Shown piece after piece: positions 60,506 to 64,000 of a DNA stretch of 64,000 bases. The stretch lies in the NCBI GenBank assembly GCA_020059045.1, contig JAGVCW010000018.1:25320-89319 (forward strand), in the 5' to 3' direction. Under the pieces are notes generated by a model. It saw only the letters and a list, made by a program, of their open reading frames with translations. It was not told the DNA's origin and made no database searches. The stretch's first letter is position 1, and the number at the start of each line of letters is the position of its first letter. A program made the translations under genes and the position numbers. The stretch comes from Minisyncoccota bacterium. GTDB taxonomy: Bacteria > Patescibacteriota > Minisyncoccia > Phycocordibacterales > Zambryskibacteraceae.

Positions 60506-60850
60506 CTAGATGCTCCCATCATAAATGGAGAACTGCAAGGGAGAGTACATAACAAGTCTCCAAGATGCTCCAAGGCGAAGGAAATCCCTATATGTCCCCG
60601 AAATAAGCATAAACGGCACTCTATGCATTTGAAAACAACATTCGATTGTACCCGTGCTACTCCGTTTGGGGGCCCGGTCTTCTCCATCCTCATCCTTCAA
60701 AACAGGAGTAACTGGCTTAAACGTTAGCCGGAAGTAATTGCCTGGACCTGGGGCTACACATAACTCCACGCGAACAGGTTTCTTGAAAACTACCTTACGC
60801 TCTACTTCCGCGGTAGAAGACATTTTCACCTCAAGTGGGTGGTTAGACAT
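60506..60850 (-). CDS. hypothetical protein
   Basis: 114 aa with no recognised family. It competes with the overlapping 60451-60693 ORF. Confidence 0.3.
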   Translation of the reverse strand: MSNHPLEVKMSSTAEVERKVVFKKPVRVELCVAPGPGNYFRLTFKPVTPVLKDEDGEDRAPKRSSTGTIECCFQMHRVPFMLISGTYRDFLRLGASWRLVMYSPLQFSIYDGSI

Positions 60851-60910: not shown

Positions 60911-61504
60911 TTATATGTATTCTTTAATCCTTTGGAAGTCCTCTTTTAGGGTGTCCAATGAACTTGCGTTGTAAATGGCAACTGCCGGATGGTACAAGGG
61001 AAGAATTTTCATTTCACCCCATGAAACTTTCGTCTCAAAGATTTGTCCATGGATTTTTGAAATAGGTTGTAGTGCACTTTCAAGTTCGAATTTCTTCATA
61101 ACATATGCCATAGAAAATCTCCCGAGGGTTGCAATAATCTTTGGTCGTATTATTTCAATTTGTCTATCAAGAAACGGAGAGTATATTTCAATTTCAACTG
61201 GCTCTGGATCGCGGTTACCAGGTGGGCGATCCTTTACAGTGTTTGTTATATAGACCTCACTACGTGGCAGCCCTATGCTTGCAAGAAGTTCATCTAGAAT
61301 CTTTCCCGCCCTGCCACAGAACGGCTTCCCTGTTTTTGCTTCATTCTGTCCCGGTGCCTCACCTACAAACATCACCCTAGAATCATGACTCCCCTCCCCA
61401 ATTACTGGGAAATATTTGTTTTCGGTCCGATAATTAAATAGAGGAGACTTTTCCAAGACCAGAATCTCATCCTTTATTCTTTTCATCTCATCAAATTTAC
61501 TCAT
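60911..61504 (-). CDS. uracil-DNA glycosylase, family 4
   Basis: 197 aa. The motif FVGEAPGQNEAKTGKPFCGRAGKILDELL is the family 4 UDG motif A. Confidence 0.85.
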   Translation of the reverse strand: MSKFDEMKRIKDEILVLEKSPLFNYRTENKYFPVIGEGSHDSRVMFVGEAPGQNEAKTGKPFCGRAGKILDELLASIGLPRSEVYITNTVKDRPPGNRDPEPVEIEIYSPFLDRQIEIIRPKIIATLGRFSMAYVMKKFELESALQPISKIHGQIFETKVSWGEMKILPLYHPAVAIYNASSLDTLKEDFQRIKEYI

Positions 61505-62021
61505 GGGTTAGAGTTTCGTCGTTTAATATTTTATAATAAAACTCGTATTTGGCTTTCTGGTACTCGTATTTACTTTTTTTATGGCACGCCTTTTTTATAC
61601 TCTCGTATTCATCTTGAAGAGAAGGATTTGTTTTCAGTAGATTAAACAGTTTAAGCTGGCGGGATAAATTTTCTGTCCGAACTGACAAATATAATTCAAC
61701 CGGAATGTTACCTTCATTCCATAACCACTCACAAAAAAGAGTTCCTTCATGGAGCGGTGTCCCAAATATTTGACATAAGGAAGCTTTATTATTTTGGTAT
61801 AAAGACTGATCAGTAATAGCATATAAATCCACATCACCTTCTCCAACAAGGCTAAGTGCAGACGCTCCAATAAAATATGTCTCTATATCCAAACCTTGTT
61901 CATTGATTTTTCTTAGAATGTCATTGGCAACTTGGTGAGTTCTTGGGTTAAATGCATTAATTACAACTTTTTCAGTATTACTTAATGTGGACAAATATTT
62001 TTCATCGTCGGGGTACATCAT
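61497..62021 (-). CDS. GrpB-family nucleotidyltransferase-fold protein
   Basis: 174 aa. IGASALSLVGEGDVDLYAIT (GS...D.D) and a C-terminal ...LLKTNPSLQDEYESIKK resemble GrpB/UPF0157. Confidence 0.65.
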   Translation of the reverse strand: MMYPDDEKYLSTLSNTEKVVINAFNPRTHQVANDILRKINEQGLDIETYFIGASALSLVGEGDVDLYAITDQSLYQNNKASLCQIFGTPLHEGTLFCEWLWNEGNIPVELYLSVRTENLSRQLKLFNLLKTNPSLQDEYESIKKACHKKSKYEYQKAKYEFYYKILNDETLTHE

Positions 62022-62070: not shown

Positions 62071-62916
62071 CTAGCCAAAGAGAGTTTCCTTAGTTGATTC
62101 GCCCTTTGTTTCCGATTTTAAATTTCTATTTTTCCCTTTTTCATTATTATCTATTGCATTTCCCCTCATCACATCTCCGAGAGATTCTACATAACCACAA
62201 TAATCACATTCCTCACCCGCCTTCGGAATTCTTCCGTCCATTAGGCATGTTTTCATTTTGCTAATAGTTTTTGGTATCCAATCTGTGTTTCCCTTGTATG
62301 GGATTATAGTTACATCAAATTCTAGTTTGCCATCAAGTGCCTTTTTGTCAGTTTTACCATTCACATATACAAAGTAGCCCGTATCTGAAACTTTAAATTT
62401 ATTTTGTTTGAAGAGCCATTGGTATATCTCCATCTGTCTCTTGTACTGTATCTTCCACTCATCATCAAGTGTAATCTCTTCGTCCTTACTTGTTGCTTTG
62501 TAATCTACAATGATTAATTCTTCCTGTGGACTTACCCACACATCATCCACTCCTCCACGAATAATGAGATTATTTTCCTTATCATGAAACGATATGCCCC
62601 TGCGTAATGCATCACGCCACTCTTCCATTCGCGAGTCCTGAAGTGGCACCGCGTCAATTCCGTATGATTTCATTAGTGGGTGCACAGTCTTCTCGGCTCT
62701 ATGAATGTCAAATTCTTTCTTAAGTAGTGTGTCCACTGCATTGTTAAGTGTCAGAGGAAAACTTGCAGGCCTTCCAACACCAAGTCTCACATCAAGATAA
62801 AAGCATCTTGGACATTGAATAAAGAGGTCTATTTTTGAGCGAGACAACCTAAATGGCTCAGTTGCATTTGGGTCGAAGAGATTCCTTGTTCTTCTAGGAT
62901 TATAGTACTTACTCAT
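62071..62916 (-). CDS. Cas4/RecB-like PD-(D/E)xK nuclease with an Fe-S cysteine set (stand-alone)
   Basis: 281 aa with an N-terminal CPRC. The motif GGVDDVWVSPQEELIIVDYK matches D...E.VDYK. C-terminal C...CDYCGY completes a 1+3 Cys arrangement typical of Cas4/AddB nuclease domains. Confidence 0.6.
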   Translation of the reverse strand: MSKYYNPRRTRNLFDPNATEPFRLSRSKIDLFIQCPRCFYLDVRLGVGRPASFPLTLNNAVDTLLKKEFDIHRAEKTVHPLMKSYGIDAVPLQDSRMEEWRDALRRGISFHDKENNLIIRGGVDDVWVSPQEELIIVDYKATSKDEEITLDDEWKIQYKRQMEIYQWLFKQNKFKVSDTGYFVYVNGKTDKKALDGKLEFDVTIIPYKGNTDWIPKTISKMKTCLMDGRIPKAGEECDYCGYVESLGDVMRGNAIDNNEKGKNRNLKSETKGESTKETLFG

Positions 62917-63743
62917 TGAAGATTTTTAATCTCGTCATACACAAGTTTAGCCTTAGCATCGCTAAAGCCAATAGATTTTAAAATACTTGGATCCTCGATT
63001 AGGGTCCTACACAACACAATCTCTCGAGAAAGTAACATTCTCTTCTGACTTCCAGACAGGTGCGTTAAGCAAGTAAGTGGATGAAGCCCACTATCCTCTA
63101 TCATTTCCTGTAGGTTCCCCTTTTTGGGATAATTCCATCCAATTAGTTTAAGACCCTTGCATTCTGCATAGCGTATTGCCGTATCAGTAAACTTTGTATT
63201 AGTTATGAGCCACCCTTCATCTAGATGCCTTGGTCTACCATAATCGTGCATTACTTCCTTAAGATCATCCATCCTTGCTTTCACGTATAGTGCCACCTTT
63301 ACATCTGACTTTAATCCTATTTCATTATGAAATTTAGCTTCAGCCATTATGAGCTTATTCTCATTCCAAGCCACCACGTCTACCTCATGAGACACACAAC
63401 CACCCATTACTATCTCATCAGTTTTAACCTCATAACCTTTTTCCTTAAGTACAGACCCTATGTAATCCTCAAAGGGAAACCCTGATGGGCCAAGTTCTTG
63501 TATTGCACGCCTAAGAGAATACTTCACCGCTGCAGGTCGTAGCCTTTTGTGCAATAGAAACAGCGCATGTTTGTATATCTGCGATGTTGCCATCCCATCT
63601 GTAATCTCAAGTGAGATGTGCTCTGTGAGATCCTCCGCGAGCTTCTTATCTGCTCCGGCCCTCACGAGAGAAGCTTCTAGTTTACTTCCATCAAATGGTT
63701 CAGACTTACCACTTGCTTTTACAACAGTAATTTCTGGTTGCAT
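62913..63743 (-). CDS. ATP-cone domain fused to an Mrr-like restriction endonuclease catalytic domain
   Basis: 276 aa. The N-terminal VVKASGKSEPFDGSKLEASLVRAG fits the ATP-cone pattern. The central FEDYIGSVLKEKGYEVKTDEIVMGGCVSHEVDVVAWNENKLIMAEAKF fits Mrr_cat (D...EAK). Confidence 0.6.
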   Translation of the reverse strand: MQPEITVVKASGKSEPFDGSKLEASLVRAGADKKLAEDLTEHISLEITDGMATSQIYKHALFLLHKRLRPAAVKYSLRRAIQELGPSGFPFEDYIGSVLKEKGYEVKTDEIVMGGCVSHEVDVVAWNENKLIMAEAKFHNEIGLKSDVKVALYVKARMDDLKEVMHDYGRPRHLDEGWLITNTKFTDTAIRYAECKGLKLIGWNYPKKGNLQEMIEDSGLHPLTCLTHLSGSQKRMLLSREIVLCRTLIEDPSILKSIGFSDAKAKLVYDEIKNLQ

Positions 63744-63785
63744 GTAAGTATTATAAGTAAGCTTTTTAGATTTAGCTATAAGACC

Positions 63786-64000
63786 CTAATTCTCTCAATC
63801 ACCCCACCTCCAAGACACTCATTTTTATCGTAAACAACGAGCGATTGACCTGAGGCTATATCAACGAGTGTCCTTTTGAAAGTTACAAGCCACTTCCCCT
63901 TTTCAATTTTAATCTTCGCATCTTGTAGTGGTTGCCTATATCTAATGCGCACACCATAGGTTTTATTAACTTCAGGTCTTCCCGTTATCCAATTGGTTCC
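63786..64000 (-). CDS. mnmA: tRNA 2-thiouridylase MnmA, C-terminal fragment (gene enters from beyond the window end)
   Basis: Minus-strand translation ...RPEVNKTYGVRIRYRQPLQDAKIKIEKGKWLVTFKRTLVDIASGQSLVVYDKNECLGGGVIERIR* matches the MnmA C-terminal beta-barrel (GQS.V.Y....CLGGGVI). Confidence 0.6.

What the first reader, a model, noticed from the sequence alone, without database searches (positions are those of the whole stretch)
62913..63743. ATP-cone (nucleotide-sensing) domain fused to an Mrr-type restriction endonuclease core
The N-terminal roughly 90 aa fit the ATP-cone pattern seen in NrdR and RNR (VVKASGKSEPFDGSKLEASLVRAG...). The rest fits Mrr_cat (FEDYIGSVLKEKGYEV...HEVDVVAW...AEAKF).

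An allosteric nucleotide sensor fused to a restriction-type nuclease implies dNTP- or ATP-regulated DNA cleavage. That is reminiscent of nucleotide-pool-sensing antiphage defences and, as far as I know, is not experimentally characterised.

The gene overlaps by 4 nt a stand-alone Cas4-like Fe-S nuclease gene downstream.
Basis: partly seen in the sequence, partly recalled or inferred. Interest (0 to 1): 0.6.

Follow-up and report, generated by a model that had tools for sequence, protein, structure and literature searches.

The report
Conserved ATP-cone-fused nuclease gene
This gene really does encode a nuclease fused to an ATP/dATP-sensing "ATP-cone" domain. It is one member of a very large, database-known but biochemically untested family that sits among housekeeping and nucleotide-metabolism genes, not phage-defence genes.

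Summary
Window 62913-63743 (minus strand) is a 276-aa ORF with three domains:
- an N-terminal ATP-cone (residues ~1-84);
- a PD-(D/E)XK nuclease core of Mrr_cat type (~88-205), with E92/D122/E135/K137 invariant in 488 homologues;
- a C-terminal helix-hairpin-helix-like domain (~206-276).

Residues 95-274 match the crystal structure of AF1548 (PDB 1Y88) at E=9e-31. The AlphaFold model (pLDDT 95) superposes its first ~83 residues on NrdR/NrdD ATP-cones at 1.6-1.9 Å.

The fusion is not rare. Thousands of full-length homologues occur in Patescibacteria, Bacteroidota, Chlamydiota, Archaeoglobi and DPANN archaea, many already named "ATP cone domain-containing protein".

The antiphage reading is not supported:
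- In 124 Patescibacteria loci the gene holds a fixed place in a core block (sigma70-DUF8128-YceG-MnmA-gene-[Cas4-like]-UDG-AlaS).
- It has no methyltransferase or defence neighbours and only weak sub-threshold nuclease-domain matches in PADLOC (E~0.01).
- It has no phage copies.
- In Bacteroidota/Chlamydiota it heads a cluster of β-CASP nuclease, nucleoside/NMP phosphorylase and PRPP-synthetase-like genes.

Most likely it is an adenine-nucleotide-gated nuclease acting in nucleic-acid turnover, salvage or repair. Nuclease activity, ligand and substrate are all untested.

The parts
62913..63743 (-). Complete gene for the 276-aa ATP-cone / PD-(D/E)XK / HhH-like protein (stop codon 62913-62915).
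   Evidence: ORF list. 100% identical database protein P0001 and >7000 homologues. Homologues align from residues ~1-7 to ~272-276.
63492..63743 (-). ATP-cone domain, residues 1-84: β-hairpin 6-16 plus helices 19-28, 33-46, 53-67, 69-75, 77-82. K9, G12, K21, T53 and Y75 are conserved. Canonical Arg10 is replaced by Ala (KASG instead of KRDG).
63468..63494 (-). Junction motif L-G-P-S-G-F-P-F-E (residues 84-92). It joins the last cone helix directly to nuclease helix α1, which carries catalytic E92. G85, P86, G88, F91 and E92 are ~100% conserved.
   Evidence: Alignment A1. Conservation in 488 sequences from four taxonomic samples. Secondary structure of the model.
63129..63482 (-). PD-(D/E)XK nuclease core (Mrr_cat type), residues 88-205. 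Predicted catalytic residues: E92 (α1), D122 (β2), E135 and K137 (β3). Further invariant residues: H119, E120, H139, Y153, R157, D160, N182; C116 and C195 are ≥94% conserved.
62916..63128 (-). C-terminal helical domain, residues 206-276 (AF1548-like_C). It is helix-hairpin-helix-like and presumably binds nucleic acid non-specifically.
62071..62916 (-). Downstream neighbour overlapping by 4 nt: a Cas4/RecB-like PD-(D/E)XK exonuclease-type protein (281 aa) with conserved Cys residues. It is a facultative neighbour and is not shown to act with the ATP-cone nuclease.
   Evidence: PDDEXK_1 E=2.2e-12; PADLOC Cas4 E=2.7e-9. D125, D138, K140, Q161 and Y165 are 100% conserved; C35/C38/C237/C240 94-96% and C224 80% in 57 orthologues. 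Directly downstream in 41/93 loci.
63744..63775 (-). 32-nt spacer between the mnmA stop codon and the start codon. It contains TATAAT ending 6 nt before the ATG and has no Shine-Dalgarno motif.
   Evidence: Read directly from the sequence. The consensus promoter scan did not call it because no -35 element is present. Not followed up.

Best explanation
The gene encodes a member of the AF1548-type family, a three-domain protein (ATP-cone, PD-(D/E)XK nuclease core, HhH-like C-terminal domain).

Proposed mechanism:
1. The C-terminal domain holds nucleic acid.
2. The E92/D122/E135/K137 site performs metal-dependent phosphodiester cleavage.
3. The ATP-cone binds adenine nucleotides (ATP versus dATP, or another adenylate) and switches the nuclease on or off. 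It probably does so by changing the oligomeric state or by moving the catalytic helix that starts six residues after the cone ends, as ATP-cones do in RNRs and NrdR.

Physiologically it is a vertically inherited, core-genome enzyme of nucleic-acid turnover. It would couple degradation of DNA or RNA (for nucleotide or ribose salvage, or clearance and repair of damaged DNA) to the cell's adenylate/dNTP status. It is not a restriction or antiphage enzyme.

Shown: the domain architecture, the fold, the conservation of catalytic and cone residues, the genomic contexts.
Inferred: nuclease activity, nucleotide binding and gating, direction of regulation, substrate, physiological role.
For: Architecture and fold.

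Catalytic competence: E92, D122, E135 and K137 are 100% conserved in 488 homologues from Patescibacteria, a 50%-cluster sample, archaea and Bacteroidota.

Cone under selection: K9, G12, K21 and Y75 are ~100% conserved. Archaeoglobi and Nanoarchaeota members keep the canonical V-x-K-R-D-G-R motif.

Tight coupling: the invariant LGPSGFPFE junction leads straight into catalytic helix α1, and pTM is 0.88.

Housekeeping context:
- MnmA is immediately upstream in 70/92 loci.
- AlaS lies within 4 kb in 61/93 loci and UDG in 52/93 of 124 distinct Patescibacteria loci.
- Neighbours are DNA-repair or nucleotide-sanitising genes: Cas4-like nuclease, UDG, YfbR-like HD 5'-nucleotidase, MazG, MGMT-like.
- Local GC is unremarkable.

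Salvage link:
- In Pontibacter, Criblamydia and Cyclobacterium the gene is first in a co-directional cluster with a β-CASP MBL nuclease, a thymidine-phosphorylase-family protein and a PRPP-synthetase-like protein.
- In a Saprospiraceae genome the β-CASP MBL gene is likewise directly downstream, followed there by an ATC_hydrolase-family gene and then the contig end.
- PPK2, phosphoketolase, acetate kinase and DeoC lie nearby in several of these loci.
- The MBL/PRPS/TP trio is microoxia-induced in Bradyrhizobium diazoefficiens (PMC6515984).

The closest nuclease-domain structures include ligand-switched nucleases such as Can2, Card1, Cdn1 and NucC.
Against: - There is no biochemical datum for any family member. 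1Y88 is a structural-genomics entry lacking the cone.
- The window protein's own ATP-cone Pfam score is below the gathering cut-off (23.2 vs 25.8).
- The canonical phosphate-binding Arg10 is Ala in this subfamily, so the ligand may not be ATP/dATP, or binding may be weak.
- The β-CASP/TP/PRPS genes are absent from the window and from all 130+ Patescibacteria and archaeal loci examined.
- The same trio occurs on 127 plasmid records without the ATP-cone nuclease, so that link may be lineage-specific.
- Archaeal contexts show no conserved partner.
- Conserved synteny within one class partly reflects relatedness.
- Only 7 non-CPR bacterial contexts were sampled.
Confidence: 0.55

Rival explanations
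1. Antiphage defence nuclease. It would be a solitary type IV-like or abortive-infection nuclease whose ATP-cone senses phage-induced changes in ATP/dNTP pools and unleashes DNA cleavage.
For: - Sensor-plus-PD-(D/E)XK is a common design of defence effectors.
- Nuclease-domain structural neighbours include MspJI, AspBHI, Can2, Card1, Cdn1, NucC, Shedu and Avs4.
- There are weak PADLOC hits to CARF-PDDEXK/Csx1 nuclease domains, E~0.01.
- Two homologues are plasmid-borne.
- A Cas4-like gene is adjacent.
Against: - The gene has a fixed position in a core housekeeping block in 124 loci.
- Sequence conservation across bacterial phyla and archaea is extreme. This is unlike fast-evolving, patchy defence genes.
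- No methyltransferase, immunity or known defence gene appears in any of ~20 annotated contexts.
- There is no significant PADLOC model and no phage homologue.
- Composition is native.
- On both plasmids the gene lies inside a metabolic cluster, not a defence island.
- Rfam found no CRISPR repeat family in the window.
Confidence: 0.12
2. Dedicated DNA-repair or recombination nuclease, structure-specific like Hjc or NucS. It would work with the Cas4-like exonuclease and UDG on damaged or uracil-containing DNA. The ATP-cone would tie repair incision to dNTP availability for resynthesis, rather than serving bulk salvage.
For: - Gene order nuclease / Cas4-like / UDG holds in many Patescibacteria, with overlapping or near-abutting reading frames.
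- MGMT-like and MazG-like genes are alternative neighbours.
- 6/58 members hit Pfam Hjc.
- The E92-D122-E135-K137 spacing (30/13/2) equals that of Sulfolobus Hjc E12-D42-E55-K57 (Hjc numbering from my memory, not checked here).
- The C-terminal domain is HhH-like.
Against: - Cas4-like and UDG neighbours are missing in about half of the Patescibacteria loci and in all archaeal and Bacteroidota contexts.
- Geoglobus encodes a separate Hjc two genes away.
- The Bacteroidota/Chlamydiota clusters point to catabolism rather than repair.
Confidence: 0.22
3. Nucleotide-responsive DNA-binding regulator analogous to NrdR. The nuclease fold would serve only as a DNA-binding scaffold, with little or no cleavage.
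For: - NrdR is the precedent for an ATP-cone attached to a DNA-binding module.
- JGI labels one homologue 'NrdR family'.
- 5/58 members weakly hit an 'inactive restriction endonuclease' Pfam model, NA-iREase1.
Against: All four catalytic residues are invariant in 488 sequences. Inactivated PD-(D/E)XK domains normally lose them. No conserved target operon lies next to the gene.
Confidence: 0.05

Closest known systems
AF1548 of Archaeoglobus fulgidus (PDB 1Y88; Pfam AF1548-like_C, PF22357)
   Different: The crystallised and annotated AF_1548 (174-199 aa) lacks the ATP-cone, so the full architecture has never been seen experimentally. It was deposited as 'unknown function'. Archaeoglobi keep the canonical KRDG cone motif, whereas this protein has KASG.
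ATP-cones of NrdR and of ribonucleotide reductases (NrdA, NrdD, NrdB)
   Different: The effector is a nuclease, not a reductase or a zinc-ribbon DNA binder. The cone is short (~84 aa). The Arg following the conserved Lys (Arg8 in P. copri NrdD, PMC11226230) is Ala here. Nucleotide binding is untested.
Can2/Card1/Cdn1 (CARF-nuclease effectors of type III CRISPR) and VC1899
   Different: The sensor is an ATP-cone, not CARF. There is no cyclic-oligoadenylate signalling context and no CRISPR locus. The genomic context is housekeeping.
E. coli Mrr and other type IV modification-dependent restriction enzymes (MspJI, AspBHI)
   Different: There is no Mrr_N, SRA or other modified-base-reading domain. 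The gene sits at a core syntenic position and is very highly conserved.
Archaeal Holliday junction resolvase Hjc and mismatch endonuclease NucS
   Different: This protein has extra N- and C-terminal domains. A separate Hjc gene exists in Geoglobus near the homologue. There is no evidence for junction specificity.

Membership tests
ATP-cone domain (PF03477) | Score at or above Pfam's gathering cut-off | tested here: not met
   The window protein scores 23.2 bits against a cut-off of 25.8, with only residues 6-56 matched. However, 53/58 homologues match at E<=0.01 (best 1.3e-10), and most database homologues carry a precomputed PF03477 hit.
ATP-cone domain (PF03477) | Fold: β-hairpin 'roof' plus four-helix bundle of ~85-100 residues | tested here: met
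ATP-cone domain (PF03477) | Conserved nucleotide-contacting residues (the Lys-Arg pair of the V-x-K-R-D-G hairpin, a second Lys, a C-terminal aromatic/basic helix) | tested here: inconclusive
   K9, G12, K21 and Y75 are ~100% conserved. Arg10 is Ala in Patescibacteria and Bacteroidota members (78-100%) but Arg in 50% of the archaeal sample. The contact residues of P. copri NrdD (Lys7, Arg8, Tyr83, Arg87, Arg91) are taken from PMC11226230.
ATP-cone domain (PF03477) | Binds ATP and/or dATP and transmits an allosteric signal | not testable with these tools
   Needs ITC/DSF and activity assays.
Mrr_cat / PD-(D/E)XK nuclease superfamily | Pfam Mrr_cat above the gathering score, and an αβββαβ core | tested here: met
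   32.3 bits vs cut-off 21, residues 88-201. 57/58 homologues hit. The model shows α89-101, β105-113, β118-126, β131-137, α148-161, β176-181. Structural matches to many restriction endonucleases.
Mrr_cat / PD-(D/E)XK nuclease superfamily | Catalytic (E)...D...(D/E)xK residues present | tested here: met
   E92, D122, E135 and K137 are 100% conserved in 488 sequences. They match D38/E51/K53 predicted for AF1548.
Type IV restriction enzyme of the E. coli Mrr kind | N-terminal modified-DNA-recognition domain (Mrr_N winged helix, or SRA-like) | tested here: not met
   No such domain appears in Pfam or NCBIfam scans. The N-terminus is an ATP-cone.
AF1548 family (PDB 1Y88) | Full-length homology of the nuclease core plus AF1548-like C-terminal domain | tested here: met
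Known antiphage defence systems (PADLOC-DB v2; defence-island residents) | Significant match to a defence-protein model | tested here: not met
   Best PADLOC hits are E=0.0094 and 0.015, covering the nuclease domain only.
Known antiphage defence systems (PADLOC-DB v2; defence-island residents) | Variable, island-like genomic context with other defence or mobile genes | tested here: not met
   Conserved core synteny in 124 Patescibacteria loci. Metabolic or housekeeping neighbours in archaea, Bacteroidota and Chlamydiota. Native GC. No phage homologues.
Restriction-modification system | Cognate DNA methyltransferase encoded nearby | tested here: not met
   No DNA methyltransferase adjoins the gene in any annotated context (the nearest Methyltransf-family ORF, PF13578 in Sporocytophaga L135, lies ~2 kb away on the opposite strand).
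CARF-nuclease effectors (Can2/Card1) | CARF sensor domain binding cyclic oligoadenylate | tested here: not met
   The sensor domain is an ATP-cone. Only the nuclease domain aligns (Pfam Card1_endonuc in 5/58 members; structural matches).

The most novel reading that the evidence does not exclude
The family is a previously unrecognised metabolic 'gate'. It would be an ATP/dATP (or other adenylate)-switched endonuclease that starts controlled breakdown of the cell's own or scavenged nucleic acid. The products would feed a β-CASP exonuclease, then an NMP/nucleoside phosphorylase, then a PRPP-synthetase-like route.

This would apply the RNR-style master switch to nucleotide supply by degradation rather than by reduction. 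It would explain why the gene is retained in genome-reduced, salvage-dependent CPR bacteria and DPANN archaea, and why it sits in hypoxia/energy-stress islands of Bacteroidota and Chlamydiota. The recurrent Mg2+ transport neighbours (MgtC, CorA, P-type ATPases) hint at a link to ATP/Mg2+/rRNA homeostasis.
Probability: 0.3. Interest if true: 0.7.

Novelty: new member of a known kind. Interest (0 to 1): 0.45.

Why it matters
ATP-cones are the classic allosteric switch of ribonucleotide reductases and NrdR. Outside those proteins their function is essentially unstudied. This family couples that switch to an apparently active nuclease. It is very large, strongly conserved and single-copy in a core genomic position in Patescibacteria, and it also occurs in DPANN archaea, Archaeoglobi, Bacteroidota and Chlamydiota.

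If the cone gates cleavage, it would be a new way of tying nucleic-acid degradation, salvage or repair to the adenylate/dNTP pool. That matters for organisms which cannot make nucleotides de novo. It could also provide a compact nucleotide-switchable nuclease.

For this particular window the practical message is more modest. The gene is an ordinary member of that family and should not be annotated as a restriction or defence enzyme.

Tried and rejected
1. An exact look-up of the window protein's own contig found nothing on record, so upstream context beyond position 64000 came from relatives instead.
2. Literature searches for ATP-cone with restriction endonuclease, endonuclease, nuclease, Patescibacteria, CPR/DPANN or antiphage found no paper on the fusion. 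Aravind, Wolf and Koonin 2000 (PMID 10939243), which may mention it, is not held.
3. The Tn-seq and annotation supplement for the Saccharibacterium Southlakia (PMC10633639) lists only a stand-alone ATP-cone protein and the RNR, not this family, so no essentiality data exist.
4. The metagenome scan with the family alignment returned only close Patescibacteria relatives (47-66% identity). It therefore did not widen the taxonomic sample.
5. tblastn of the β-CASP MBL, TP-family and PRPS-like proteins against the window and all Patescibacteria and archaeal loci found nothing. The salvage-cluster link cannot be transferred directly to this genome.
6. The AFDB Foldseek library was unavailable.
7. Promoter and terminator scans gave fewer or no more sites than shuffled sequence and do not define the operon.
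8. The top hits of the N-terminal profile against PDB were designed helical-repeat proteins with many weak repeated stretches. I treated them as composition artefacts and ignored them.
9. Rejected the label 'plain Mrr homologue', because the ATP-cone fold is confirmed.
10. Rejected the label 'Holliday junction resolvase' (an automatic JGI name), because it rests only on weak Hjc-model similarity of the shared core.
Full report
**1. What is there.**

Window 62913..63743 is a 276-aa ORF on the minus strand with an ATG start. Its stop codon overlaps the start of the next minus-strand gene by 4 nt (ATGA, + strand 62913-62916).

An identical protein is in the public collection. More than 7000 proteins match at E<=1e-3, and the best 120 are 56-71% identical and 272-314 aa (mostly 275-290). 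An exhaustive HMMER search of 1.84 billion 50%-identity representatives gives 1174 clusters at E<=1e-3 and 447 at E<=1e-30. Almost all are full length. This is a real, conserved gene.

**2. Domain architecture.**

Pfam results for the window protein:

| Pfam family | Residues | E-value | Bits | Cut-off |
|---|---|---|---|---|
| Mrr_cat | 88-201 | 1.2e-7 | 32.3 | 21 |
| ATP-cone | 6-56 | 1.1e-4 | 23.2 | 25.8 |
| AF1548-like_C | 236-274 | 0.02 | 15.5 | 23.9 |

Because the cone score is sub-threshold, I tested it in four other ways:
- Of 58 diverse homologues, 53 hit ATP-cone (best 1.3e-10), 57 hit Mrr_cat and 35 hit AF1548-like_C.
- A profile of the N-terminal 84 residues from 25 bacterial and archaeal members hits ATP-cones in PDB. 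The hits are P. copri NrdD (E=4.4e-4, profile 6-75), S. coelicolor NrdR (2.1e-3) and E. coli NrdA (2.5-4.3e-3).
- An AlphaFold2 model built on the 58-sequence alignment is very confident (pLDDT 95.4, pTM 0.88). It shows a β-hairpin plus helical bundle in residues 6-82.

The ATP-cone assignment therefore stands.

**3. Conservation.**

I aligned 488 family members drawn from four searches: close Patescibacteria, 50%-cluster representatives, AF1548-like archaea, and Bacteroidota-like sequences. The findings:
- The predicted catalytic residues E92 (helix α1), D122 (β2), E135 and K137 (β3) are 100% conserved in every group.
- The junction motif G85-P86-x-G88-x-x-F91-E92 is also ~100% conserved.
- D122/E135/K137 correspond to D38/E51/K53, predicted as the active site of AF1548 in the GOS paper (PMC1821046).
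- In the cone, K9, G12, K21 and Y75 are ~100% conserved.
- Position 10 is the Arg of the canonical V-x-K-R-D-G hairpin (Arg8 of P. copri NrdD, which contacts the phosphates; PMC11226230). It is Arg in half of the archaeal sample (Archaeoglobi and Nanoarchaeota: 'VRKRDGR') but Ala in Patescibacteria, Bacteroidota, Chlamydiota and Aenigmarchaeota ('VKASGE').

So the cone is ancestral to the family and under strong selection. The subfamily that includes the window protein may bind its ligand differently, or may bind a different adenylate.

Only six residues separate the last cone helix (77-82) from catalytic helix α1 (89-101). That gives a short mechanical path from ligand site to active site.

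**4. Distribution.**

The family is not confined to one lineage:
- Searching with the AF1548 core returns about 1000 archaeal proteins. They come from Archaeoglobus, Geoglobus, Ferroglobus, Nanoarchaeota, Aenigmarchaeota and Hadesarchaea. Nearly all are 260-280 aa and carry all three Pfam domains.
- Searching with a Pontibacter homologue returns more than 7500 proteins. Those that carry a source name come mostly from Bacteroidota such as Sporocytophaga, Flavobacterium, Cyclobacterium and Saprospiraceae.
- Many are already named 'ATP cone domain-containing protein', 'restriction endonuclease' or 'Restriction endonuclease/ATP cone domain'.

The annotated AF_1548 of strain DSM 4304 (174-187 aa) and the 1Y88 chain (199 aa) lack the cone. 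Relatives that are 99% identical are 265 aa and have it. The full architecture has therefore never been seen experimentally. I found no paper that characterises the fusion. The original ATP-cone paper (PMID 10939243) is not held.

**5. Genomic context in Patescibacteria.**

All 44 species-representative genomes retrieved are Patescibacteria (Paceibacteria, Zambryskibacteria, Taylorbacteria, Nomurabacteria and similar). With the metagenome loci they give 124 distinct loci.

| Neighbour | Position relative to the gene | Loci |
|---|---|---|
| MnmA | immediately upstream | 70/92 |
| Cas4-like PD-(D/E)XK gene | immediately downstream | 41/93 |
| UDG | within 4 kb downstream | 52/93 |
| AlaS | within 4 kb downstream | 61/93 |

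Further upstream lie YceG, DUF8128, a sigma-70 factor and LeuS. Where the Cas4-like gene is absent, its place is taken by one of several genes:
- a YfbR-like HD 5'-nucleotidase;
- UDG;
- MgtC (7 loci);
- PCMT;
- a MazG-like gene;
- an MGMT-like gene.

The window itself reads mnmA / ATP-cone nuclease / Cas4-like / GrpB-like / UDG / (gap) / alaS, all on the minus strand. GC is 0.35-0.43 across this block. Rfam found no CRISPR repeat family, and indeed no RNA family at all, in the window. This is a stable core-genome position, not a defence island.

**6. Context elsewhere.**

In three archaea the neighbours differ and are housekeeping genes: an amino-acid permease and MerR in Geoglobus, CorA overlapping the start in Ferroglobus, and metabolic genes in a DPANN-like contig.

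In non-CPR bacteria a pattern appears:
- On plasmids of Pontibacter actiniarum and Criblamydia sequanensis the gene is first in the same co-directional cluster. The order is ATP-cone nuclease, MBL-fold (β-CASP) hydrolase, thymidine-phosphorylase-family protein, ribose-phosphate pyrophosphokinase.
- In Criblamydia the cluster is flanked by phosphoketolase, glucan phosphorylase and acetate kinase.
- The same four genes, followed by PPK2 and a P-type ATPase, occur in a Cyclobacterium chromosome.
- A Saprospiraceae genome has the β-CASP gene directly downstream, followed by an ATC_hydrolase-family gene before the contig ends.
- Another Bacteroidota contig has PPK2, a P-type ATPase and DeoC nearby.
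- Sporocytophaga and a Flavobacterium lack the cluster.

The MBL/PRPS/TP trio is induced by microoxia in Bradyrhizobium diazoefficiens (bll3115-3117; PMC6515984). It sits in islands rich in universal stress proteins in Sphingobium and next to P-type ATPases in Legionella. It also occurs on 127 plasmid records that lack the ATP-cone nuclease. The nuclease is thus an optional addition to that module.

No context contains a DNA methyltransferase or a recognisable defence gene adjoining the gene. PADLOC gives only E~0.01 nuclease-domain hits. No phage genome encodes a homologue.

**7. Interpretation.**

Shown:
- a three-domain protein with a bona fide ATP-cone fold, an intact PD-(D/E)XK active site and an HhH-like tail;
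- very strong conservation across two domains of life;
- core or metabolic genomic contexts.

Inferred:
- It cleaves nucleic acid.
- Adenine nucleotides bound to the cone gate that activity. The analogy is with RNRs and NrdR, where ATP/dATP binding changes oligomeric state (PMC5794259, PMC11226230). The design also resembles Can2/Card1-type ligand-switched nucleases, whose nuclease domains are among the closest structures.
- Its role is nucleic-acid turnover, meaning salvage and/or repair.

I put 0.55 on this package. About 0.22 goes to the narrower repair-nuclease variant, 0.12 to antiphage defence and 0.05 to a non-cleaving regulator. The direction of regulation, the ligand (given Ala10) and the substrate (DNA or RNA) are open.

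**8. Comparison and novelty.**

By every sequence and structure test, the gene is a member of the AF1548-type family. The family is recognised in Pfam, NCBI and PDB but has no known function.

It is not a member of the E. coli Mrr type IV class, because it has no modified-DNA reader domain. It is not part of an R-M system, because there is no methyltransferase. It is not a CARF-nuclease and not in any PADLOC system.

For this window the finding is 'new member of a known kind'. The family as a whole remains an attractive uncharacterised target, hence a moderate interest score. The most novel reading that the data allow is an adenylate-gated entry point into nucleic-acid catabolism and salvage (probability ~0.3).

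Noticed in passing
PDB 1Y88 / A. fulgidus AF_1548; proteins P0271, P0511-P0518: The annotated AF_1548 (174 aa UniProt O28724; 187 aa RefSeq) and the crystallised chain (199 aa) lack the ATP-cone. Proteins 99% identical from other Archaeoglobus assemblies are 265 aa and start with a canonical 'MLRVRKRDGR' cone. I did not examine whether the type strain has a mis-called start or a frameshift.
   Followed up: partly
L053 2829-6597; L054 8840-12608; L137 7875-11666; L140 5619-9393; L141 7049-9384: There is a conserved, uncharacterised trio: β-CASP MBL hydrolase, a ~500-aa thymidine-phosphorylase-family protein, and a PRPP-synthetase-like protein. The phosphorylase is found on 127 plasmid records; in the contexts inspected it is followed by the PRPP-synthetase-like gene (the MBL gene is absent in Sphingobium) and lies beside universal stress proteins, P-type ATPases (including MgtA), phosphoketolase and acetate kinase. 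It is microoxia-induced in Bradyrhizobium diazoefficiens as bll3115-3117.
   Followed up: partly
L035, L040, L096, L102, L122, L124, L125 (gene just downstream of the homologue); L051 3958-5001; L136 1658-4282: Mg2+/cation transport genes recur next to the ATP-cone nuclease:
- MgtC family directly downstream in 7 Patescibacteria loci (Pfam E=1e-33).
- CorA overlapping the start in Ferroglobus.
- A P-type cation ATPase overlapping the stop in a Flavobacterium.
- P-type ATPases nearby in Criblamydia, Cyclobacterium and L139.

This may hint at an ATP/Mg2+ link, or it may be coincidence.
   Followed up: partly
window 62071-62916 (-): In 57 orthologues of the Cas4-like neighbour the active-site residues D125, D138, K140, Q161 and Y165 are 100% conserved. 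The Cys pattern is C35-x2-C38 ... C224-x12-C237-x2-C240. This differs from the one-N-terminal plus C-x2-C-x5-C pattern that I recall for Cas4/AddB, so the metal or cluster site may be arranged differently. Rfam found no CRISPR repeat family in the window.
   Followed up: partly
window 63744-63775 (-): The 32-nt spacer between the mnmA stop and the ATP-cone gene start is CTAAATCTAAAAAGCTTACTTATAATACTTAC. A perfect TATAAT ends 6 nt before the ATG and there is no Shine-Dalgarno motif. This could mean a leaderless or very short-leader transcript.
   Followed up: no
window 1-64000: Rfam at gathering thresholds finds no RNA family at all (no tRNA, rRNA or riboswitch) in the 64-kb window.
   Followed up: no
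window 61497-62021 (-): A 174-aa ORF with a weak GrpB match (E=2.3e-4, below cut-off) lies between the Cas4-like gene and UDG. It has no counterpart in any of the other 134 loci searched by tblastn, so it looks like a lineage-specific insertion.
   Followed up: partly
window 60506-60850 (-): The 413-nt gap between UDG and alaS holds a 114-aa ORF with no Pfam match. The listed alaS ORF starts at a GTG with ~25 extra hydrophobic residues before the likely true start, 'MTSEEIRGRF'.
   Followed up: no
Supplement of PMC10633639 (Southlakia epibionticum SEML1_0737): This cultivated Saccharibacterium encodes a stand-alone ~95-aa ATP-cone protein with no effector domain. That is a different ATP-cone architecture in Patescibacteria, and no member of the nuclease family is listed there.
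   Followed up: no
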